Shown piece by piece: positions 5,815 to 55,474 of a DNA stretch of 64,000 bases. The notes beneath the pieces are model-generated. The model saw only the letters and a list, made by a program, of their open reading frames with translations. It had not been told where the DNA came from and ran no database searches. The number at the start of each line of letters is the position of its first letter. Position 1 is the first letter of the stretch. The stretch is from Arenicellales bacterium (GTDB lineage: Bacteria; Pseudomonadota; Gammaproteobacteria; Arenicellales; JAHEKD01): NCBI GenBank assembly GCA_965215945.1, contig CBDCFC010000047.1, forward strand, positions 20,643 through 84,642, written 5' to 3'. The position numbers and the translations under genes were made by a program.

Positions 5815-5891
5815 GCGCCCGTAGCTCAGTTGGATAGAGTACCTGGCTACGAACCAGGCGGTCGGGCGTTCGAATCGCTCCGGGCGCGCCA
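5815..5891 (+). tRNA. tRNA-Arg (anticodon ACG)
   Basis: 77-nt cloverleaf with the same acceptor and D arms as the first tRNA-Arg, anticodon loop CTACGAA, T-arm GGGCGTTCGAATCGCTC and a CCA end. Confidence 0.92.
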
Positions 5892-18474: not shown

Positions 18475-19752
18475 ATGAGGGGCCGCGTGTATGATCCGGT
18501 ATTCGGGCGGTTCCTGTCACCTGATCCGCATATTCAAAGCCCGCTCAACAGCCAAAGCCTGAATCGCTACAGTTATGTCTTGAACAATCCGCTTAGTCTT
18601 ACTGATCCAAGCGGGTATTTCTTCAGCTGGTTTAAAAAGCTGTTTAAGAAGATTCTCAAAGTGATCAAGAAGATCATCAAGAAGATCGTGAAGATCATCA
18701 AAAAAGTCATCAAGGCGATAGAAAAAGTCATTACCAAGATCATCATGGCTTTGCCGGTGGAGATACGGATTATTGCGGCGATAGTAGTGGCGATCTATGC
18801 GCCTCAGATTGCCGGGGCGCTGCTCAATGCAGCCCCAGCGCTAACGAGTGGTATAATCAATGCAATTGGTTACGGTGCGTTTAAAGGTGCAGTCGGTGGA
18901 TTTTTGGCGGGCTTGATTACCACGGGTTCGTTTACAGGAGCCTTAATTGGTGGGGTCACAGGTGGGGCGTTTGGTGCGATAGGAAGTCATTTCAAGAATA
19001 TTGGCATCCAGAACCAAATGGCAGCAGGTGTGTCTCGCTATCAAGGTATCGCCAATGCCGGTTCAAATTTACTGAAAAATGGCCTGACACGATTGCAGTT
19101 TGCGACACAGTCACTCGCGCATGGTGTTGTTGGAGGATTAAATTCCAAGCTTAGTGGTGGTAGCTTTAGTAAAGGTATACTAACTGGGTTTTTAAACAAG
19201 ATTGCCAGCCCGATAGTATCAAGTACGAATTCATTTGTGAGTTTGGTGCGTCATACAGCCTTTGCGGGTATTGTAAGTAAAATAGCGGGTGGCAGTTTTA
19301 GTCAAGGTGCTAGAATTGGATTTATGGCAACGTTGTTTAATGAACTTGGCAATGGGAGAGGTGATAAGCTTTGGGCAGATACGAAGAAATGGTTTGGGGA
19401 ACATTTTCGATTTGGTGATACTGTAAACTTACGCGCAGGTGGTTTTGGTATTGAGCTTGATCATCGCTCAGCTAAATTATCAGATTATTCTAGTTCGGAG
19501 ATGACTAAAAATGGGAAAGTAATTAACTTTTCGGAATCTAGAACTAAGTTTGCTGTGGAAGCCTTTGGAACAGGCTTTGAGTTTGAAAATACTTATGATG
19601 CAAGTGGAAATTTAATATCACGCGATTTGAATTATAGGTTTTTTTACTATGATATAAATGCTCAAGCGTTCACTATTGATATTTCTATAGGATTGGGGCT
19701 TTCTTTTGATTACAAGATTCCAATTTATGATCCTATCGAACCCGCCTATTAA
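18475..19752 (+). CDS. Orphan Rhs C-terminal cassette 1 (end of Rhs core, conserved delivery module, alternative toxin tip)
   Basis: It begins at the conserved core sequence M(R)[16 protein letters not shown] and contains DPSGY plus the same Lys/Ile helix and GGSFS motifs. The last ~140 aa are unrelated to the main toxin. I see no clear Shine-Dalgarno upstream, so it may be silent. Confidence 0.75.
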
Positions 19753-21039: not shown

Positions 21040-22416
21040 GACCTCAAGGGCACTTTATTAAACGCTATTTCGATGATACTGGCGGTGGATACTCAGAGGA
21101 CCGGGTTATTAACCATTCCCCTTTTGATCTTACCGCCAGATAAAACGGTCAGCCAAACGCTAAGTGAATATCGAAGGGTTGCTGGCGACTTAACATATGG
21201 TATACCGCCCGGGTTAATTTGTTGGCGATCGTTTTTTTCGCCACCATAACAGGTACTTTCTTAGACTTACGTTGATAATACCGTTTAATCGTAGGATTCC
21301 AGATGCAAGCATAATGTGCCGCTTCCACAAACGCCATGGCCAGATAGCGATTACCATTTTTGCTATTGCCTTTGGCTTTGAGTTTGCCGTTACTGATTTT
21401 ATTGGCCGGCACACACCGTGCATAAGAGGAATAATGACCCACTTTAGAGAATCGTTCGATCGGTCCTGTTTCCAGTAAGATGCTCATGCCCAGGATTTGA
21501 CCAATGCCCGGGACACTGGTGAGCAACTCGTAGTCAGTGCGGTCACATCGTGCTAACACAAATACCTCAATGGCTTTAATTTGCTGGCGTAGTAGGTGGA
21601 GTAAATGATGGGGTTGTTGGGCGGTAAACAACATCACCGGATCATTAAAATACTGATCTAAGTTCTGTTGATCGAGTTGTTTGATCTGATGGCTGGTTAA
21701 GCGTTTACCGGTATGTCGATTGATCAGACTCTGTAAACTTAATAGCTGAGCGGTGCTTTGTTTGACCAACAGTAGTCGCCGTCGTAATAAATCACGCACG
21801 GACCGCATGGCTTTTGGGTAAATATAACCGGTGGGTAAGATGCCTAGTCGAAGTAAATGGGCTAAGTGACGGGCATCACTGGCATCATCGGTGTACTTCA
21901 GACCGTTGTATTGCTGAATCGCTAAGGTATTGGCCAAGTGAACCGGATACCCTTGTTCGATTAAACCGTCCACTAGCCAGTACCAGTTGTAGGTGGATTC
22001 CACCACAATCCCTTGAATTTGTGATTGATAGGGTGCTAAATAACCAGTAATTACGTCAAGCTGGTTGGGCAGGCGTTTCTCACGGATTAACTGATCGGTT
22101 TCATTGATGATTGAAACCATACAATTATTGCTATGTAGGTCTATTCCGCAGTAAAGTGTCATAAGTCGTCTCCTCAGGTTTAGTTGACCTTCTACTGTAG
22201 TACACGGACGTGGCAGTAGAGAGGCGACTTATGATTTTCAGAGGGATTAAAAAGTAGGCAGTTGCTTACAATAAATGGTGTCCGACTCGATTTAATCTTC
22301 CAACTGTGATTTAGCAGGTCTGCCTCTAATAAAAGGTGCCGGAGGGATTATTTTTTAGGCACAGCAGGTGGTTTAGTCAGGCTGTTCAAATTTTAACCCC
22401 ATCCCCATTTACAGCC
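21040..22416 (-). mobile_element. IS110-family insertion sequence (ends approximate)
   Basis: It contains the transposase at 21149-22162. The right limit is set by the start of Rhs homology at 22417. The left limit is a guess, placed at a 10-bp motif (TAGTTGACCT) that also occurs at 22182. Confidence 0.5.
21149..22162 (-). CDS. IS110-family (DEDD) transposase
   Basis: 337 aa. The N-terminus CGIDLHSNN plus the central and C-terminal VPGIGQILGMSILLETG...SKNGNRYL pattern are typical of IS110-family recombinases. Confidence 0.9.
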   Translation of the reverse strand: MTLYCGIDLHSNNCMVSIINETDQLIREKRLPNQLDVITGYLAPYQSQIQGIVVESTYNWYWLVDGLIEQGYPVHLANTLAIQQYNGLKYTDDASDARHLAHLLRLGILPTGYIYPKAMRSVRDLLRRRLLLVKQSTAQLLSLQSLINRHTGKRLTSHQIKQLDQQNLDQYFNDPVMLFTAQQPHHLLHLLRQQIKAIEVFVLARCDRTDYELLTSVPGIGQILGMSILLETGPIERFSKVGHYSSYARCVPANKISNGKLKAKGNSKNGNRYLAMAFVEAAHYACIWNPTIKRYYQRKSKKVPVMVAKKTIANKLTRAVYHMLSRQQPFDIHLAFG

Positions 22417-25203
22417 CCCTTATTAGCCGGAACCTATATTAATGGCACAAATCCAGTGGCTTGGGAGCAAACGGCCATTGATAGTTATGATAATCCGAAT
22501 GTGGGGCCGTTCAAGTCCTCACCGATTCCCGGTGCTCAACTGATCTCATGGGATTCGGATGACAAGAACGGCCCGGAGAAGTGGTGGATCAATCACACTA
22601 CAGGGGAAATGGCAGCCGCCGAAAAATTGCCAATATACAAAAAACATAATTGCGATGAAGAAGAGGGCGATAACATTGACGATGACGAACTCTATGCACA
22701 GATTTCGCATGGTCAATTAGGTACAGACATTGCTGCCTTGCATAACAGTAAATTTTTTGAGCGTAATTACATTTATTACCAATACAAAGAGCTGGCCGAT
22801 CCGATCAATCAACTGGTGGAACAGGCGAACAGCACCTTTGAAACGGTCGAAACCCTGAAAACGGATTATGAAAACAGTGGTAGTACGTACTGGGAGGCAC
22901 TGGCCTATGCCCCGGACGGGCAGATCAAAAAAGCCAAATACGGCAACGGGGTGGAATCAAATTGGAAGTACGACCCGCGTGGTCGGACTTATGAGATTCA
23001 AGCCAAGAAAGGCAGCGGTGACTATTTACAGAACATGTTCTTTGACTACGACAACATCGGCAATCTCGTTTGGCGTGATGACCGGGTTAACCAATATGAT
23101 GAGCGATTCGAATACGATGTATTAAACCGTCTTGAATCGTCCACGTTAAGTGGCAGTGCGGTGGCGGAATATGCCAATCTGGGTCTTCAGAGTACGAATT
23201 ATGAATACGATGCGTTGGGTAATCTGACCTGTAAGTCGGATGTGGGTAATTACACTTACGGTCAGGGCATAGGCAGTGGTGCAGGTGTCCATGCGGTGGT
23301 CTCGACCAGCGGAACGGGCAATTCAAGTTGCAGCAGCAATGCTATCTACAGTTTTGCCCCGGCCAGTTTCAGTTATGACGATAACGGCAATCAGATCAGC
23401 GGCAACGGGCGTACGGTGACGTATTCACCGTTTAACAAGCCCACAAAAATCGTTAAAGGCGCGAATGTAAATGATTTTATCTACGGCCCGGAACGTCAAC
23501 TCATTTACCAGCGTGAAAAAATCCATGATGAGTACCGTGAAACCCGCTATGTGGGTGGGATATACGAGGAAACCATCAAGGACGGTAATGATAACAACGC
23601 TGAAGCGGTACATCATCTGACCATGGCCGGGCATACCATTGCGATATTAAAGACCAACACAGATCTAACCCAGGAGAAAAGCCGGCATTACCTGCACCAG
23701 GATCATCTTGATTCTGTGGTGATGATCACCGATCGTGATGGAAACGTGGTCGAGAAAAATCACTATGATCCGTTTGGTAAAAAGCGGTTAGCCATCATCG
23801 AGAATCCAACGATCTACGCCGCTGGATTCCTGCCGATCACGGATCGAAGCTTTACCGGACATAGGTATCTGCCCAAACAGGAATTGATTCACATGAAAGG
23901 GCGCGTCTATGATCCGGTGTTTGGTCGATTTCTCTCACCGGACCCGCACATACAGTCATCACTGAATAGTCAAAGCCTGAATCGCTACAGTTACGTGCTG
24001 AATAATCCACTCTCATTGGTTGATCCCAGTGGGTATTTCTTTAGCTGGTTTAAAAAGCTGTTCAAGAAAATTCTCAAGATTATCAAGAAGATCATCAAGA
24101 AGATCGTCAAGATCATCAAAAAGGTGATCAAGGCGATTGAGAAGGTGATTACTAAGATCATCATGGCCTTGCCGGTGGAGATACGGATCGTGGCGGCCAT
24201 AGTAGTGGCGATCTATGCGCCTCAGATCGCGGGGGCGATCTCCGGACTTCTTGGCGGAACTGCAACGGCACTGGGAACATTTTTTACGACTAAAATTGGC
24301 GTCGGTTTAGTTGGTGGATTCTTGTCTGGGTTAATTACAACAGGCTCATTTAAAGGGGCTTTAATTGGTGGGTTGACCGGAGCAGCGTTTGGTGCAGTTG
24401 GGGCTAGATTCAGCAATGTTGCCAGTAATAACATTAATACGGCAAGACTCGCGGGTCAAACACTTCAACAAGCTGGGCGTATTGCCAGTGGTGTGTTTAG
24501 GGGTTTAAGCTCGGGACAGGCATTCTTACAATCACTGGCGCATGGTATAGTGGGTGGATTGAATTCGAAACTGAGTGGCGGCAGTTTCAGCAAAGGTATC
24601 CTGACAGGATTTTTAAATAAGATTGCCAGTCCGATAGTATCTAGCACAAATTCATTTGTAAGTTTAGTTCGACATACACTATTTGCAGGAGTAGTGAGTA
24701 AGATAGCTGGAGGGAGTTTTAGTAGAGGGGCTAGAATAGGATTTTTGGCAACGTTGTTTAATGAACTTGGACATGGTAGAGGCGGGAAATTACTTGCAGA
24801 TACTAAGAAAACTATAGGCTCTACGTTTCAGGCAGTGAAACACTATTTTTTCGGTAACGGTGAATCCGTGGCATTAGATCAATATACTAAAGACTCGATA
24901 ATAAATTCAAACGATCAGAAATACCGTAGTCATCGAATACGAACTGGACAAACAACACGATTGTCCGGTAATTATGGAGTTGATGTCACAGACAAAATGT
25001 ACCATGTTGGAGATACAACTGTGAGCTATGATACGCAATGTGGAGTGAGTACATGCACTACAACATATACTGGTCAGGGAGATGGTTTTTGGGATCCGGT
25101 TATAGATGTAGATGGAATTGGGTCAGGAGGTGAAATTCCAGGCGGTACTCCGTATCCTTATGATCCTTTTTCATGGTCAGAAACATATCCAAATCCTTAT
25201 TAG
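22336..25203 (+). CDS. 5'-truncated Rhs paralogue (large orphan: part of the insert module, YD repeats, core, delivery module, alternative toxin tip)
   Basis: Rhs homology starts at 22417 (PLLAGTYINGTNP versus PLLPGKYINGENP in the main gene). The first 27 codons of the tracked ORF come from IS-flanking sequence. The last ~150 aa are unique (HYFFGNGESVAL...GDGFWDP...GGTPYPYDPF). Confidence 0.75.
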   Translation: MPEGLFFRHSRWFSQAVQILTPSPFTAPLLAGTYINGTNPVAWEQTAIDSYDNPNVGPFKSSPIPGAQLISWDSDDKNGPEKWWINHTTGEMAAAEKLPIYKKHNCDEEEGDNIDDDELYAQISHGQLGTDIAALHNSKFFERNYIYYQYKELADPINQLVEQANSTFETVETLKTDYENSGSTYWEALAYAPDGQIKKAKYGNGVESNWKYDPRGRTYEIQAKKGSGDYLQNMFFDYDNIGNLVWRDDRVNQYDERFEYDVLNRLESSTLSGSAVAEYANLGLQSTNYEYDALGNLTCKSDVGNYTYGQGIGSGAGVHAVVSTSGTGNSSCSSNAIYSFAPASFSYDDNGNQISGNGRTVTYSPFNKPTKIVKGANVNDFIYGPERQLIYQREKIHDEYRETRYVGGIYEETIKDGNDNNAEAVHHLTMAGHTIAILKTNTDLTQEKSRHYLHQDHLDSVVMITDRDGNVVEKNHYDPFGKKRLAIIENPTIYAAGFLPITDRSFTGHRYLPKQELIHMKGRVYDPVFGRFLSPDPHIQSSLNSQSLNRYSYVLNNPLSLVDPSGYFFSWFKKLFKKILKIIKKIIKKIVKIIKKVIKAIEKVITKIIMALPVEIRIVAAIVVAIYAPQIAGAISGLLGGTATALGTFFTTKIGVGLVGGFLSGLITTGSFKGALIGGLTGAAFGAVGARFSNVASNNINTARLAGQTLQQAGRIASGVFRGLSSGQAFLQSLAHGIVGGLNSKLSGGSFSKGILTGFLNKIASPIVSSTNSFVSLVRHTLFAGVVSKIAGGSFSRGARIGFLATLFNELGHGRGGKLLADTKKTIGSTFQAVKHYFFGNGESVALDQYTKDSIINSNDQKYRSHRIRTGQTTRLSGNYGVDVTDKMYHVGDTTVSYDTQCGVSTCTTTYTGQGDGFWDPVIDVDGIGSGGEIPGGTPYPYDPFSWSETYPNPY
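22549..23643 (+). repeat. Second copy of the 1,095-bp identical block (see 15188-16282)
   Basis: Same evidence as for the first copy, at an offset of 7,361 bp. Confidence 0.9.
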
Positions 25204-25656: not shown

Positions 25657-25785
25657 TTATCGATGTGCTAAATTTGTGCCAAAGTAGTTGTAATTTACTG
25701 TTGTTTTCTGTCATTTACTGGCACATTTGAGTCTGGCAAGCGCCGCAAGTGTTTGATTTTAAAAGAAAGTAGTTTTAACTAAATG

Positions 25786-25842
25786 TGGCTACGAACCAGG
25801 CGGTCGGGCGTTCGAATCGCTCCGGGCGCGCCAATAAAATCA
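25786..25842 (+). repeat. attR-like 57-bp direct repeat (partial tRNA-Arg(ACG) 3' end plus flank)
   Basis: It matches 5844-5900 perfectly. No tRNA 5' half is present upstream of it. Confidence 0.75.
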
Positions 25843-29344: not shown

Positions 29345-29738
29345 TCAGCAAGCTCAACTCTGCAAAAATAACAGTTGTTGGTTGCTGATCTGACATGTAA
29401 AAATTCAACTGTTTCCTGATTCAAGAGCTGCCGCGCCTTATTTTCAAACTCTTCGGTTCGTATAACTTCACCTGTACCTTCGATGATTCGTTCATTTTTA
29501 TTATCGTTCGCGTAAGCGACAGAATACCACGGGCTTGCGAACAATCTCCTGTGCTATTTGGGCCTGACAGGTCAGTGATGTACTTAATAGCCCGTTTTGA
29601 CGTACATGTTGAAACAGATCGGGATAACTGAAAGAACGGAGGAATTTGAGATGCCGGTGGATGAATGAGTGTATATAGATTGAACATCGCTCCTTAAATA
29701 AAGTGCGATGTTCATCGGATCAGTCCGCAAGGGCTTAC

Positions 29739-31122
29739 ATGGACACTGCCGATTTGCCACGTTAAATTAAATAAAAAGAAGATCAATTGCACACTTACAT
29801 CCGGCCTGTTATTGAAGTGGCGTGTTTCGACACTTCTGGCCCCAATGGAATACGCCGACAGGTTCCCTATCTGTTACTCGGAGTTTTACATCTCCAACCT
29901 TTTCGCCGGGGTTTCCCTGTCGCGGTCTGACCTGTTTTACCATCTATTTCACTTGTCGCAATCTGTCTGAGGGTTAATTATTAAGTACTTGATCATCGTT
30001 GTGTTGTTAAATTATCGAGCTATTGCTTGATAGGCTTGACCTGACGTTACTACACGCCATGCAATCCGTGCGGTTTTATTCGCCTGGGCCACACATGCCT
30101 TGTTGACATGAGTCCGATTCATTAATGCCGTGAGCCATGGTGATTTGTTTTCCATTCCAGCCCGTTGGCGGCGTTTCACACTGCAGATCACTGAGCGTGC
30201 ACCATGGACCAATAACATTCGCACATAGCCATCCCCTCGTTTGGATATGCCCAACAATCGCTGCTTACCCCCACTGGATGCCTGTCGAGGCACTAATCCC
30301 AAATAGGCCGCTAATTGACGGCCATTGTTAAATGCACGGCCATCACCGATCGTGCCGACCAACGCCGTTGCCGTTAATATACCAATCCCAGGTATGCGGG
30401 TTAATAATTGGCTCTTCTCACAGTGTTGGTGCCATCGCGTTATCGACTGTTCAATTTCATCAATCTTTTGTTGATACATGACATAGTGTTCGTATAAGTT
30501 TGACAGTAAGGTGCGCATAGCCGGATTCAGCTCATTTGACGCATCCGCCAATATATCCGCCATACGATGACCAATATGGTGGTTGCCCTGGGGGATTACG
30601 ATGCCAAATTCGCTTAATGTCCCCCGAATATGGTTGCTCAGCGCAATGCGTTGGGACATCAGCAATCGTCGTGAGTGGTGTAAATGCAGTATCGTTTGCT
30701 GATCTATAGATTTGACCGGTGCAAAACGCATGCTGGGTCGTTGTACCGCTTCGCAGATCCCTTGGGCATCATTTTGATCATTTTTATTTGATTTGATATA
30801 CGGGGCCACAAACTGTGGGGCCATGGCCCGTACGGTATGCCCAAGTTTAGCAAATTGACGGGCCCAGTAATGCATGGCACCACCGGCTTCAATCCCAATC
30901 AAACACGGTGATAGGTTGGCCAACAATGCAAGCAGCTGTGTACGGTTTACTTTCTTTTGTAAAACGACTTCACCGTGATCGTCTATCCCATGCAGTTGGA
31001 AACTATTTTTTGCCAAATCAATGCCTAATACGCTAATCTTGTTCATGGATACTGCCTCTTTTGTTAATTGAAATTTCAATTATGGCACTTTAGATGCCGA
31101 ATGTTATTGAGGCAGTGTCCAT
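29739..31122 (-). mobile_element. IS1111-like (IS110-family) insertion sequence, copy A, delimited by a 12-bp inverted repeat
   Basis: The perfect inverted repeat is ATGGACACTGCC (29739-29750) and GGCAGTGTCCAT (31111-31122). Copy B lies at an offset of 24,060 bp. Shared but more diverged sequence extends to 29497 and 31169. Confidence 0.65.
30012..31079 (-). CDS. IS110-family (DEDD) transposase, copy A
   Basis: 355 aa with LGIDLAKNSF at the N-terminus and IPGIGILTATALVGTIG...GISKRGDGYVR at the C-terminus. The protein is 100% identical to the ORF at 54072-55139. Confidence 0.92.
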   Translation of the reverse strand: MKFQLTKEAVSMNKISVLGIDLAKNSFQLHGIDDHGEVVLQKKVNRTQLLALLANLSPCLIGIEAGGAMHYWARQFAKLGHTVRAMAPQFVAPYIKSNKNDQNDAQGICEAVQRPSMRFAPVKSIDQQTILHLHHSRRLLMSQRIALSNHIRGTLSEFGIVIPQGNHHIGHRMADILADASNELNPAMRTLLSNLYEHYVMYQQKIDEIEQSITRWHQHCEKSQLLTRIPGIGILTATALVGTIGDGRAFNNGRQLAAYLGLVPRQASSGGKQRLLGISKRGDGYVRMLLVHGARSVICSVKRRQRAGMENKSPWLTALMNRTHVNKACVAQANKTARIAWRVVTSGQAYQAIAR

Positions 31123-31164
31123 TCCATTTGATGCGGTAACAACCCCGAGTTTACCCGGGGGAAT

Positions 31165-31491
31165 CTATTTTAATTCTGAAAAAATCTGATCAGTTTTAGC
31201 GGCACAAATAAAGTCATTGATTGAAACGCCACCAGCAGAGTGGGTAGTAAATTCAACAACACATTTTTTATAGTAGATATGTAGATCAGGATGGTGATCC
31301 TGCTGGTCAGCCATCTGACCAACTGCAACCGCAAATTTTGGGCCATCAGCATAAGTGCTGAATTTAAAAGTTCGACTTAGCATATTTCGCTCAGACTCAA
31401 ATGACCACTGTGAAACTTGTGCTAACAGTTCATTGATCTGATCTTGATGCAGAATCTGCATTTGATGCGAGCAATTTTCATTGATAAGCAT
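31165..31491 (-). CDS. phhB: 4a-hydroxytetrahydrobiopterin (pterin-4-alpha-carbinolamine) dehydratase
   Basis: 108 aa containing the family signature DHHPDLHIYYKKCVVEFTTHSAGG. Confidence 0.8.
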   Translation of the reverse strand: MLINENCSHQMQILHQDQINELLAQVSQWSFESERNMLSRTFKFSTYADGPKFAVAVGQMADQQDHHPDLHIYYKKCVVEFTTHSAGGVSINDFICAAKTDQIFSELK

Positions 31492-53558: not shown

Positions 53559-53798
53559 CTTTATTATCGTTCGCGTAAGCGACAGAATGCCACGGGCCGA
53601 GGAATCTCTTGTGCTGTTCAAACCTGACAGATCAGTGATGCACTTAATAGCCCGTTTTGACGTACATGTTGAAACAGATCGGGGTCACTGAAAGAACGGA
53701 GGAATTTGAGATGCCCGTGGATGAATGAGTGTATATAGGTTGAACATCGCTCCTTAAATAAAGTGCGATGTTCATCGGATCAGTCCGCAAGGGCTTAC

Positions 53799-55182
53799 AT
53801 GGACACTGCCGATTTGCCAAGTTAAATTAAATAAAAAGAAGATCAATTGCACACTTACATCCGGCCTGTTATTGAAGTGGCGTGTTTCGACACTTCTGGC
53901 CCCAATGGAATACGCCGACAGGTTCCCTATCTGTTACTCGGAGTTTTACATCTCCAACCCTTTCGCCGGGGTTTCCCTGTCGCGGTCTGACCTGTTTTAC
54001 CATCTATTTCACTTGTCGCAATCTGTCTGAGGGTTAATTATTAAGTACTTGATCATCGTTGTGTTGTTAAATTATCGAGCTATTGCTTGATAGGCTTGAC
54101 CTGACGTTACTACACGCCATGCAATCCGTGCGGTTTTATTCGCCTGGGCCACACATGCCTTGTTGACATGAGTCCGATTCATTAATGCCGTGAGCCATGG
54201 TGATTTGTTTTCCATTCCAGCCCGTTGGCGGCGTTTCACACTGCAGATCACTGAGCGTGCACCATGGACCAATAACATTCGCACATAGCCATCCCCTCGT
54301 TTGGATATGCCCAACAATCGCTGCTTACCCCCACTGGATGCCTGTCGAGGCACTAATCCCAAATAGGCCGCTAATTGACGGCCATTGTTAAATGCACGGC
54401 CATCACCGATCGTGCCGACCAACGCCGTTGCCGTTAATATACCAATCCCAGGTATGCGGGTTAATAATTGGCTCTTCTCACAGTGTTGGTGCCATCGCGT
54501 TATCGACTGTTCAATTTCATCAATCTTTTGTTGATACATGACATAGTGTTCGTATAAGTTTGACAGTAAGGTGCGCATAGCCGGATTCAGCTCATTTGAC
54601 GCATCCGCCAATATATCCGCCATACGATGACCAATATGGTGGTTGCCCTGGGGGATTACGATGCCAAATTCGCTTAATGTCCCCCGAATATGGTTGCTCA
54701 GCGCAATGCGTTGGGACATCAGCAATCGTCGTGAGTGGTGTAAATGCAGTATCGTTTGCTGATCTATAGATTTGACCGGTGCAAAACGCATGCTGGGTCG
54801 TTGTACCGCTTCGCAGATCCCTTGGGCATCATTTTGATCATTTTTATTTGATTTGATATACGGGGCCACAAACTGTGGGGCCATGGCCCGTACGGTATGC
54901 CCAAGTTTAGCAAATTGACGGGCCCAGTAATGCATGGCACCACCGGCTTCAATCCCAATCAAACACGGTGATAGGTTGGCCAACAATGCAAGCAGCTGTG
55001 TACGGTTTACTTTCTTTTGTAAAACGACTTCACCGTGATCGTCTATCCCATGCAGTTGGAAACTATTTTTTGCCAAATCAATGCCTAATACGCTAATCTT
55101 GTTCATGGATACTGCCTCTTTTGTTAATTGAAATTTCAATTATGGCACTTTAGATGCCGAATGTTATTGAGGCAGTGTCCAT
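53799..55182 (-). mobile_element. IS1111-like (IS110-family) insertion sequence, copy B
   Basis: It has the same 12-bp inverted repeats (53799-53810 and 55171-55182) and an identical interior to copy A. Confidence 0.65.
54072..55139 (-). CDS. IS110-family (DEDD) transposase, copy B
   Basis: The 355-aa protein is identical to copy A. Confidence 0.92.
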   Translation of the reverse strand: MKFQLTKEAVSMNKISVLGIDLAKNSFQLHGIDDHGEVVLQKKVNRTQLLALLANLSPCLIGIEAGGAMHYWARQFAKLGHTVRAMAPQFVAPYIKSNKNDQNDAQGICEAVQRPSMRFAPVKSIDQQTILHLHHSRRLLMSQRIALSNHIRGTLSEFGIVIPQGNHHIGHRMADILADASNELNPAMRTLLSNLYEHYVMYQQKIDEIEQSITRWHQHCEKSQLLTRIPGIGILTATALVGTIGDGRAFNNGRQLAAYLGLVPRQASSGGKQRLLGISKRGDGYVRMLLVHGARSVICSVKRRQRAGMENKSPWLTALMNRTHVNKACVAQANKTARIAWRVVTSGQAYQAIAR

Positions 55183-55474
55183 TCCATTTGTTACGGTAAC
55201 AACCCCGGCTTTAGCCGGATTTTAGTAAACCTATTGAGGTTCCGGCACAAGCCCGGGGGAATCTATTCTTGCGAAAGAGCCAATCATCACACGTGGCTAA
55301 TAATATCGAACCTTGGCAGCCTAGACTTGTGATGATTTTACGGCGGAACAGCTTGAGATAAATGCCAGTGATCAGATCGTTGTGTTGAATCGGATCACTT
55401 ATTCGACTGGAAAATAAAATTATACAAATTAAAACACAAGAAAAGGCGGGGCGGATATATTCAGTTACAAACGT

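What the first reader, a model, noticed from the sequence alone, without database searches (positions are those of the whole stretch)
29497..31169. Two identical IS1111-like copies sit inside a shared, more diverged ~290-bp context and carry a long 3' non-coding end (candidate guide RNA)
Seen: copy A (29739-31122) and copy B (53799-55182) are bounded by a perfect 12-bp inverted repeat, ATGGACACTGCC, and encode identical 355-aa DEDD transposases. Similarity continues outside the inverted repeats, over ~240 bp on the transposase-3' side (29497-29738 versus 53560-53798) and ~45-85 bp on the 5' side. This outer sequence has clustered substitutions, a 3-nt indel, and a ~43-bp extra segment in copy B (about 55209-55251). 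The 3' side holds 273 nt of non-coding sequence inside the inverted repeat and includes hairpins, for example GAACATCGC-N14-GCGATGTTC at 29683-29714. Copy B starts right after a 12-bp-stem hairpin. Established, as I recall it: IS1111-subgroup elements have subterminal inverted repeats, insert at specific sequences (often repeated or palindromic), and are reported to encode their guide RNA downstream of the recombinase gene. Inference: there are two possibilities. The true IS may be ~1.67 kb with rapidly evolving ends, or a 1.38-kb IS may have twice targeted a pre-existing dispersed repeat. In either case 29497-30011 is a prime place for a bridge- or seek-type RNA.
Basis: partly seen in the sequence, partly recalled or inferred. 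Interest (0 to 1): 0.55.

Follow-up and report, generated by a model that had tools for sequence, protein, structure and literature searches.

The report
RNA-guided IS1111-type element nested in repeat
Two near-identical copies of an ordinary RNA-guided insertion sequence (IS1111 family) each sit at the same spot inside an older, roughly 300-bp non-coding repeat that the element's own guide RNA is programmed to recognise, the arrangement already described for IS1111 in Coxiella.

Summary
Both copies are a 1,394-bp IS1111-family insertion sequence at 29736-31129 and 53796-55189 on the minus strand. Each has a 12-bp subterminal inverted repeat, a 7-bp left and 3-bp right terminal extension, a 344-aa DEDD transposase and a 276-nt 3' non-coding region.

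The non-coding region encodes a seek/bridge-type RNA. It is conserved in about 60 relatives, and 15 of 19 consensus base pairs show compensatory changes. Its guide segments match each element's own flanks far more often than other elements' flanks.

In the window, the guides specify GTAAC|AG|CCCTTGCG, which is exactly the junction inside the outer sequence. The outer ~240 + 47-78 bp is therefore the target, not part of the IS. It is non-coding, strongly structured and 7% diverged, against 0.14% for the IS. It is absent from the closest related IS.

At locus A the outer sequence is a discrete insert. Its ends coincide with the points where homology to syntenic relatives breaks.

The RNA lies at 29736-29971, not in 29497-29735. 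No IS-free copy of the outer repeat could be found or excluded, because the source genome is not searchable here. The verdict is a new member of a known kind, paralleling Coxiella IS1111 in the QMITE2 repeat.

The parts
29736..31129 (-). IS copy A, 1,394 bp: 7-bp left extension, sTIR, transposase gene, non-coding region, sTIR, 3-bp right extension
   Evidence: Family-wide end pattern in 69 elements. Nucleotide homology to the L001 IS stops within 2 nt of these ends. Coordinates.
53796..55189 (-). IS copy B, 1,394 bp. Differs from copy A at 2 positions (53820 and 53960, equivalent to 29760 and 29900).
30012..31046 (-). Transposase gene, copy A (344 aa from the ATG). Copy B is at 54072-55106.
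   Evidence: Pfam PF01548 and PF02371. NCBIfam NF033542 'IS110 family RNA-guided transposase', 343.5 bits against a cutoff of 140. Identical to P0121. Contains the GL-P----SG motif (YLGLVPRQASSGG).
31111..31122 (.). Left subterminal inverted repeat, copy A (copy B: 55171-55182). The 7-bp terminal extension AAATGGA is at 31123-31129 (copy B: 55183-55189).
29739..29750 (.). Right subterminal inverted repeat, copy A (copy B: 53799-53810). The 3-bp terminal extension GTA is at 29736-29738 (copy B: 53796-53798).
29736..29971 (-). Conserved 3' non-coding region encoding the seek/bridge RNA, copy A (copy B: 53796-54031)
   Evidence: nhmmer family model, E = 1.6e-35 and 6.2e-37; these are the only significant hits in the window. 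Covarying structure.
29896..29905 (-). Target guide 'T'. Copy A reads CGAAAAGGUU; copy B reads CGAAAGGGUU at 53956-53965. It pairs with the top strand of the right flank, AGCCCTTGCG.
   Evidence: The copy A/B difference at 29900 lies in this guide.
29871..29877 (-). Target guide 'B', GUAACAG (copy B: 53931-53937). It is identical to left flank GTAAC plus core AG, so it pairs with the bottom strand across the insertion point.
29844..29851 (-). Donor guide AUUCCAUU, complementary to the left IS end AATGGAAT (copy B: 53904-53911)
   Evidence: It covaries with the left extension in relatives (for example L001, L040, L073).
29794..29800 (-). Donor guide AUGUAAG, identical to the right IS end CAT-GTA plus core AG (copy B: 53854-53860)
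   Evidence: Across relatives the RNA triplet and core follow the right extension and core almost without exception.
29755..29760 (-). -35 box of the predicted circle-junction promoter. Copy A reads GTGGCA; copy B reads TTGGCA at 53815-53820. After a 17-nt spacer, the -10 box TAAAAT forms across the joined right and left ends.
   Evidence: CTTG(G/C)(C/A)A is conserved in this position in relatives.
29497..29735 (.). Outer repeat, long arm, copy A (copy B: 53560-53795). Non-coding, with several hairpins.
31130..31169 (.). Outer repeat, short arm, copy A (copy B: 55190-55267, with about 43 extra nt inside a CCCCGG/CCGGGG hairpin)
55190..55206 (-). Left part of the reconstituted target hairpin in copy B: GGGGTTGTTACCGTAAC. 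It is followed, once the IS is removed, by AGCCCT at 53790-53795. The IS sits in the 3' arm of a 10-bp hairpin.
29347..29499 (-). C-terminal remnant of a DUF1203 gene (residues 106-156 of 157), cut exactly at the outer repeat's end
   Evidence: tblastn, 59% identity, E = 1.4e-17. The gene is intact in relatives L094-L096.

Best explanation
Each copy is a canonical 1,394-bp IS1111-family insertion sequence. It encodes a DEDD transposase and, downstream of it, a seek/bridge RNA.

Inferred from the family: after excision the ends join into a circle, and the junction forms a promoter (TTGGCA, 17 nt, TAAAAT) that drives transcription of the transposase and the RNA. One internal loop of the RNA pairs with the IS ends. 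The other pairs with both strands of a target, GTAAC|AG|CCCTTGCG.

That target lies in the 3' arm of a small hairpin inside a structured, non-coding repeat of about 290-335 bp. The IS entered the same position, in the same orientation, in two older copies of this repeat.

Shown here: the IS ends, the conserved and covarying RNA, the match between guides and flanks, the age gap between the IS and the outer sequence, and the discreteness of the outer element at locus A. Inferred: transcription, circle formation, and that the two insertions were independent events.
For: **Ends.** In 69 related elements the inverted repeat is preceded by N[A/G]ATGG[A/G] and followed by [G/A/C][T/C/G]A. The first base of the left extension equals the first base after the right extension, giving a shared core. 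This matches the published 7-bp/3-bp rule (PMC11187229). The closest relative, L001 (78% aa identity), shares nucleotide homology only over window 53794-55187.

**RNA.** The non-coding region is detected by nhmmer in about 60 loci. In the consensus structure, 15 of 19 pairs carry compensatory changes. 93.7% of cells are paired against 66.5% in shuffles and 28-45% when partners are slid. The covariation score is 0.69 against 0.18.

**Guides.** Across 56 elements, the T-guide columns pair with the element's own right flank over 7 or more nt in 77% of cases, against 5.7% for other elements' flanks. The B guide does so in 57% against 2.9%. The window IS scores 7 and 7. The donor guides track the left extension and the right extension plus core.

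**Outer sequence.**
- It is 92.6% identical between copies, against 99.86% for the IS.
- It has stop codons in all six frames.
- Its fold z-scores are -4.5 and -3.95.
- It does not match the RNA family model.
- It is absent from all 105 fetched loci.

**Locus A.** Three syntenic relatives have recR-DUF1203-PCD-orn with no IS and no outer sequence. In the window, homology breaks at 29499 and 31171, which are the ends of the A/B similarity.

**Precedent.** 20 of 21 Coxiella IS1111 copies sit in the QMITE2 repeat, with most of the repeat lying 3' of the transposase gene and 10-20 bp lying 5' of the IS. The occupied copies are more diverged than the empty ones (PMC5896051).
Against: - No IS-free copy of the outer repeat was found. 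Only two copies are visible and both are occupied, so independence of the repeat from the IS is inferred, not shown.
- The left flank of copy A (GCATC) matches the B guide at only 3 of 5 positions. The T guide has one mismatch and one G-U pair against the shared right flank.
- The outer element has no terminal inverted repeats and no visible target duplication, so its own way of spreading is unknown.
- The single-sequence fold of the RNA is no more stable than shuffles (z = -0.45).
- There are no expression data.
Confidence: 0.8

Rival explanations
1. The mobile unit is the whole ~1.67-kb block (29497-31169), an IS with long, fast-evolving ends.
For: Both visible copies carry the outer sequence. 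At locus A the block's outer ends coincide with the breaks in synteny.
Against: The donor guides in the RNA specify ends at AATGGAAT and CATGTA|AG, not at 29497 or 31169. The target guides pair with the sequence immediately outside 29736/31129. Relatives share nothing beyond those ends. The outer sequence is 7.4% diverged against 0.14% for the IS. A 43-nt indel is tolerated in the outer part.
Confidence: 0.03
2. The IS inserted once into the outer element. The composite (repeat plus IS) was then copied to the second locus by the repeat's own mobility or by recombination. The IS parts were later homogenised, by gene conversion or by excision and re-entry from a sister copy.
For: No IS-free copy is known. 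The position and orientation are the same in both copies. At locus A the composite as a whole replaces ancestral DNA. The genome holds at least six IS copies that could act as conversion donors.
Against: This needs an extra homogenisation step confined exactly to the IS. Divergence begins 2-4 nt outside the left IS end (GATGCGG versus GTTACGG) with no gradient. RNA-guided re-targeting explains the identical position and orientation without extra steps.
Confidence: 0.12
3. The 240-bp arm is a hitchhiking module mobilised by the IS transposase through alternative ends, as the ssr9 module is by ISPpu9 (PMC12288879).
For: It lies directly downstream of the transposase side of the IS and is strongly structured.
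Against: The repeat continues on the other side of the IS, so the IS is inside it rather than beside it. The arm has no sTIR-like motif (no GTCCAT or ATGGAC) and no match to the family model. Its distal end, GATAATAAA, does not resemble CCATGTA.
Confidence: 0.04

Closest known systems
IS1111 of Coxiella burnetii nested in the QMITE2 repeat (Wachter et al. 2018, PMC5896051)
   Same: An IS1111-family IS sits at a fixed point of a palindrome inside a small non-coding repeat. Most of the repeat lies 3' of the transposase gene and a short piece lies 5' of the IS. The occupied repeat copies are more diverged than the IS.
   Different: The repeat here is longer (about 290-335 bp against 150-190 bp). 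It has no detectable terminal inverted repeats or direct repeats, and no sequence similarity could be tested. IS-free copies are documented in Coxiella but not here. The target is GTAAC|AGCCC, not a GTAG palindrome.
ISEc11, ISPa11, ISKpn4 and ISPst6, with their seekRNA (Siddiquee et al. 2024, PMC11187229)
   Same: 12-bp sTIR, 7-bp/3-bp extensions, non-coding region downstream of the transposase gene, T guide 5' of B guide with both matches meeting at the insertion point, and a -35/-10 promoter formed at the circle junction.
   Different: The transposase is only distantly related: the best hits among plasmid records are below 60% identity. The target differs. Nothing here has been tested experimentally.
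IS621 and its bridge RNA, IS110 group (Durrant et al. 2024, PMC11208160; PDB 8wt6)
   Same: A DEDD recombinase. A two-loop RNA in which one internal loop reads the target, the other reads the donor ends, and both share a core.
   Different: In IS621 the RNA is upstream of the gene and the inverted repeats are only 2-3 bp. Sequence similarity to the IS621 protein is weak and limited to the C-terminal domain (E = 4.6e-6).
ISPpu9 with its ssr9 module (Pares-Guillen et al. 2025, PMC12288879)
   Same: An IS110-family IS inserted in repeats, with an extra non-coding block downstream of the transposase gene.
   Different: ssr9 is bounded by copies of the IS end boxes and lies beside the IS. Here the IS is inside the repeat and no end-like boxes exist.
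[quoted passage not shown]
   Same: An IS1111-family IS that uses a sequence within another mobile element as its landing site.
   Different: The host element here is small, non-coding and of unknown type.

Membership tests
IS1111 family (within IS110) | DEDD/RuvC-like transposase with the IS110-type C-terminal domain and the GL-P----S(T)G motif | tested here: met
   PF01548 and PF02371. NF033542, 343.5 bits against a cutoff of 140. The motif GLVPRQASSG is in the translation.
IS1111 family (within IS110) | Subterminal inverted repeats of 11-13 bp | tested here: met
   A perfect 12 bp, ATGGACACTGCC/GGCAGTGTCCAT
IS1111 family (within IS110) | Asymmetric terminal extensions (7 or 6 bp left, 3 bp right) and no target duplication | tested here: met
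   The pattern holds in 69 relatives with a shared core base. Homology to L001 ends within 2 nt of these ends. The donor guides specify the same ends. No empty site was available to confirm directly.
IS1111 family (within IS110) | Long non-coding region downstream of the transposase gene | tested here: met
   276 nt from the stop codon to the IS end, against 64 nt between the left inverted repeat (IRL) and the ATG, or 83 nt from the left IS end to the ATG
IS1111 family (within IS110) | seekRNA with a top-strand guide 5' of a bottom-strand guide, both matching the flanking target and meeting at the insertion point | tested here: met
   Own flank versus other flanks: 77% against 5.7% (T guide) and 57% against 2.9% (B guide) for runs of 7 or more nt. 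The window element scores 7 and 7.
IS1111 family (within IS110) | Conserved RNA secondary structure | tested here: met
   15 of 19 pairs with compensatory changes. Covariation score 0.69 against 0.18 in shuffles and 0.06-0.12 when partners are slid.
IS1111 family (within IS110) | Circular intermediate whose junction forms a promoter; RNA bound to the transposase; transposition to the cognate target | not testable with these tools
   Sequence only. Joining the ends gives TTGGCA, 17 nt, TAAAAT in copy B.
MITE-like landing-pad repeat (as QMITE2) | Multiple genomic copies, including copies without the IS | tested here: inconclusive
   Two copies, both occupied. None elsewhere in the window. The source genome is absent from genome, metagenome, viral, plasmid and phage collections.
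MITE-like landing-pad repeat (as QMITE2) | Terminal inverted repeats and flanking direct repeats | tested here: not met
   No inverted repeat between the ends (TTTATTATCG... and ...GGGGGAATCTATT). No inverted pairs were reported. At locus A the element replaces DNA, so no duplication can be read.
MITE-like landing-pad repeat (as QMITE2) | A discrete, non-coding insert relative to the ancestral locus | tested here: met
   Stop codons in all frames. Synteny breaks at 29499 and 31171 coincide with the ends of the A/B similarity.
ISPpu9-ssr9-type modular hitchhiker | A module bounded by copies of the IS end boxes and lying beside the IS | tested here: not met
   The outer sequence flanks the IS on both sides. 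It has no sTIR-like motif and no match to the family model.

The most novel reading that the evidence does not exclude
The outer element of about 300 bp is a new kind of non-autonomous mobile element. It has no terminal inverted repeats and no target duplication. It spreads by RNA-guided recombination supplied in trans, for example by one of the two IS110-family transposases in this window, and it doubles as the dedicated landing pad of the IS. A related reading: the two private substitutions of copy A, one in the target guide and one in the -35 box of the junction promoter, reflect selection that silences or re-programmes that copy.
Probability: 0.08. Interest if true: 0.55.

Novelty: new member of a known kind. 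Interest (0 to 1): 0.3.

Why it matters
It gives a clean worked example, from sequence alone, of how to read an IS1111-family element. The guide RNA states both the true IS ends and the target, which settles whether flanking similarity belongs to the IS. It adds an uncatalogued IS lineage with a defined 15-nt target. It also points to an uncharacterised structured repeat that appears to have replaced part of a gene. None of this changes current understanding of RNA-guided transposition.

Tried and rejected
**Search for IS-free copies of the outer repeat.** All searches came back empty:
- BLAST and a pattern search of the window.
- A 34-nt pattern in genome contigs.
- A 21-nt pattern in metagenome contigs.
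- A 26-nt pattern in viral contigs.
- blastn against plasmids and phages.
- All 105 fetched loci.

Both window copies contain the genome contigs and metagenome contigs patterns exactly, so the source genome itself is not in those two collections.

**Access to the source assembly.** Exact-protein look-ups of the transposase failed. The cluster table nonetheless shows it on 4 contigs of an NCBI/ENA assembly, plus a frameshifted copy on a fifth contig.

**Relatives and synteny.** The genome-contig search for relatives returned only full-length relatives at 30-45% identity, plus contig-end fragments. Synteny for locus B could not be recovered. The adhC hits came from an unrelated organism. The closest esterase loci lack the amt neighbour.

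**Rfam.** It has no family for this RNA or for the outer element. Only chance-level hits appeared.

**Rejected readings of the outer sequence.**
- Coding: rejected.
- A decayed copy of the IS non-coding region: rejected.
- A module bounded by IS ends: rejected.
- An IS200/IS605-type element with matching subterminal hairpins: rejected, because the two hairpins are unrelated in sequence.

**Other.** Single-sequence folding of the seekRNA is not significant, so structural support rests on covariation. The promoter and terminator scans added nothing decisive.
Full report
**Observation.** The 12-bp inverted repeat ATGGACACTGCC/GGCAGTGTCCAT bounds 29739-31122 and 53799-55182. The transposase ORFs on the minus strand are identical. 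They match Pfam DEDD_Tnp_IS110 and Transposase_20 and NCBIfam NF033542, 'IS110 family RNA-guided transposase', at 343.5 bits. The ATG start gives 344 aa, and that product is what public collections hold.

Similarity does continue outside the repeats. On the 3' side of the transposase gene it is 92.6% over 242 columns, with a 3-nt indel. On the 5' side there are 36 nt at 86%, then a further 16-nt block, with about 43 extra nt in copy B. The copies are not quite identical. They differ at 29760 and 29900.

**True ends of the IS.** I collected one close relative (L001, 78% aa identity), 80 metagenomic relatives and 12 genomic ones. In 69 elements the inverted repeat is preceded by a 7-bp block N[A/G]ATGG[A/G] and followed by a 3-bp block such as GTA, ATA or ACA. 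In nearly all of them the first base of the left block equals the first base after the right block. This is the 7-bp/3-bp terminal extension described for the family (PMC11187229), with a shared core.

Nucleotide homology between the window and L001 covers 53794-55187 only. Beyond that the flanks are unrelated. The IS is therefore 1,394 bp: 29736-31129 and 53796-55189.

**The RNA.** The 276 nt between the stop codon and the right end is conserved at the sequence level in about 60 loci. In the window, the family model hits only 29736-29971 and 53796-54031.

An RNAalifold consensus over 55 sequences gives 19 pairs, of which 15 have compensatory changes. On that structure 93.7% of cells pair, against 66.5% in shuffles and 28-45% when partners are slid. 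The covariation score is 0.69, against 0.18 in shuffles and 0.06-0.12 when slid.

The architecture has two parts. A long stem encloses an internal loop and a terminal hairpin. A second stem is flanked by single-stranded segments. The single-sequence fold of the window RNA reproduces these helices but is no more stable than shuffles.

**Guides.** The two sides of the first internal loop are the variable columns. Across 56 elements, the 5' side pairs with the top strand of the element's own right flank over 7 or more nt in 77% of cases, against 5.7% for other elements' flanks. The 3' side equals the element's own left flank plus core in 57% of cases, against 2.9%. The order, top-strand guide 5' of bottom-strand guide with both matches meeting at the insertion point, is the one published for IS1111-type seekRNAs.

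In the window the guides are CGAAAGGGUU (53956-53965) and GUAACAG (53931-53937). They read the target GTAAC|AG|CCCTTGCG, which is the sequence flanking copy B.

Two further segments read the IS ends. AUUCCAUU is complementary to AATGGAAT at the left end. AUGUAAG equals CAT-GTA plus the core AG at the right end. Across relatives this second segment follows the right extension and core almost without exception. The RNA therefore confirms the ends independently.

Joining the ends gives TTGGCA, 17 nt, TAAAAT. The -35 block is conserved in relatives, in line with the junction promoter known for the family.

**The outer sequence.** Because the target guides pair with bases immediately outside 29736/31129, the outer sequence is target, not IS. 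It is 7.4% diverged between copies, against 0.14% for the IS. It has stop codons in every frame and no Rfam match. It does not resemble the IS non-coding region.

With the IS removed in silico, it folds far better than shuffles on both strands (z = -4.5 and -3.95). The insertion point lies in the 3' arm of a 10-bp hairpin, GGGGUUGUUA-CCG-UAACAGCCCU. L001 also sits in a small palindrome (CTCCCC...GGGGAG).

**Locus A compared with relatives.** Three metagenomic contigs at about 77-80% nucleotide identity carry recR-DUF1203-PCD-orn with no IS and no outer sequence. In the window, homology runs to 29426 at the nucleotide level and to 29499 at the protein level, where DUF1203 is cut after residue 105. 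It resumes at 31171-31172, two codons before the end of the PCD gene.

These break points are the ends of the A/B similarity (29497 and 31169). The outer element is therefore a discrete piece of DNA that replaced about 420-500 bp here. It is not conserved local context. I found no equivalent comparison for locus B.

**Mechanism.** The most likely history is that an older, structured, non-coding repeat was present at both loci, and the IS entered each copy at the site its RNA specifies. That explains the identical position and orientation and the age gap between IS and repeat.

This is the arrangement documented for the founding family member. 20 of 21 Coxiella IS1111 copies sit in the QMITE2 repeat, with most of the repeat 3' of the transposase gene and 10-20 bp on the other side, and the occupied copies are more diverged (PMC5896051).

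The main rival is that a composite of repeat plus IS moved once and the IS parts were later homogenised. I cannot exclude it, because no IS-free copy of the repeat could be searched for. The source genome is absent from every collection available.

The '1.67-kb IS' reading is rejected by the donor guides, the relatives and the divergence. The ssr9-type hitchhiker reading is not supported, because the IS lies inside the repeat and the repeat has no IS-like ends.

**Detail on copy A.** Its two private substitutions fall in the 10-nt target guide (29900, weakening the match to the shared flank) and in the -35 box of the junction promoter (29760, TTGGCA to GTGGCA). Its left flank (GCATC) also fits the guide less well than that of copy B (GTAAC). 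Relatives and the target both indicate that copy B has the ancestral state. With only two events this may be chance.

**Verdict.** This is a real and well-formed IS1111-family element with a seek/bridge RNA, nested in a repeat that serves as its target. It is a new member of a known kind.

Noticed in passing
window 29760 and 29900 (copy A) versus 53820 and 53960 (copy B): The only two differences between the IS copies hit the -35 box of the predicted circle-junction promoter and the 10-nt target guide. Both changes are in copy A and both move it away from the family or target consensus. This could be chance, or silencing or re-programming of that copy.
   Followed up: partly
window 21149-22162 (-): A second, distantly related IS110-family transposase (337 aa; Pfam DEDD_Tnp_IS110 and Transposase_20; 29% identity over a 96-aa C-terminal stretch to the IS studied here). 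It lies inside an Rhs toxin locus, between the main rhs gene and a downstream rhs fragment. Its ends and RNA were not analysed.
   Followed up: partly
window 9365-17854 (+), 18475-19752 (+), 22336-25203 (+); repeats 15116-15415/22477-22776 and 16526-16825/18469-18768/23887-24186: A large Rhs/TcdB-type protein gene (2,829 aa), followed by repeated rhs-related segments at 80-93% identity. This looks like a polymorphic-toxin locus with spare C-terminal modules.
   Followed up: partly
window 5815-5891 and 25783-25833: The 3' 51 nt of tRNA-Arg(ACG) is repeated exactly about 20 kb downstream. This is the signature of an island integrated at the tRNA gene, and it would enclose the Rhs locus and the second IS. 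No integrase was looked for.
   Followed up: no
window 29347-29499 (-) and 31165-31171 (-): The outer repeat's insertion left a DUF1203 pseudogene holding only the last 51 codons. It also supplies the last codon and the stop codon of the pterin-4a-carbinolamine dehydratase gene, whose C-terminus differs from relatives (...FSELK* against ...FSKFSN*).
   Followed up: yes
L001 5920-7300; L105: The closest relative of the IS (78% aa identity) comes from ENA sample ERZ25070167. The same sample holds a 5.05-Mb circular contig encoding the esterase homologue at 83% identity. That sample may contain organisms related to the source of this window.
   Followed up: no
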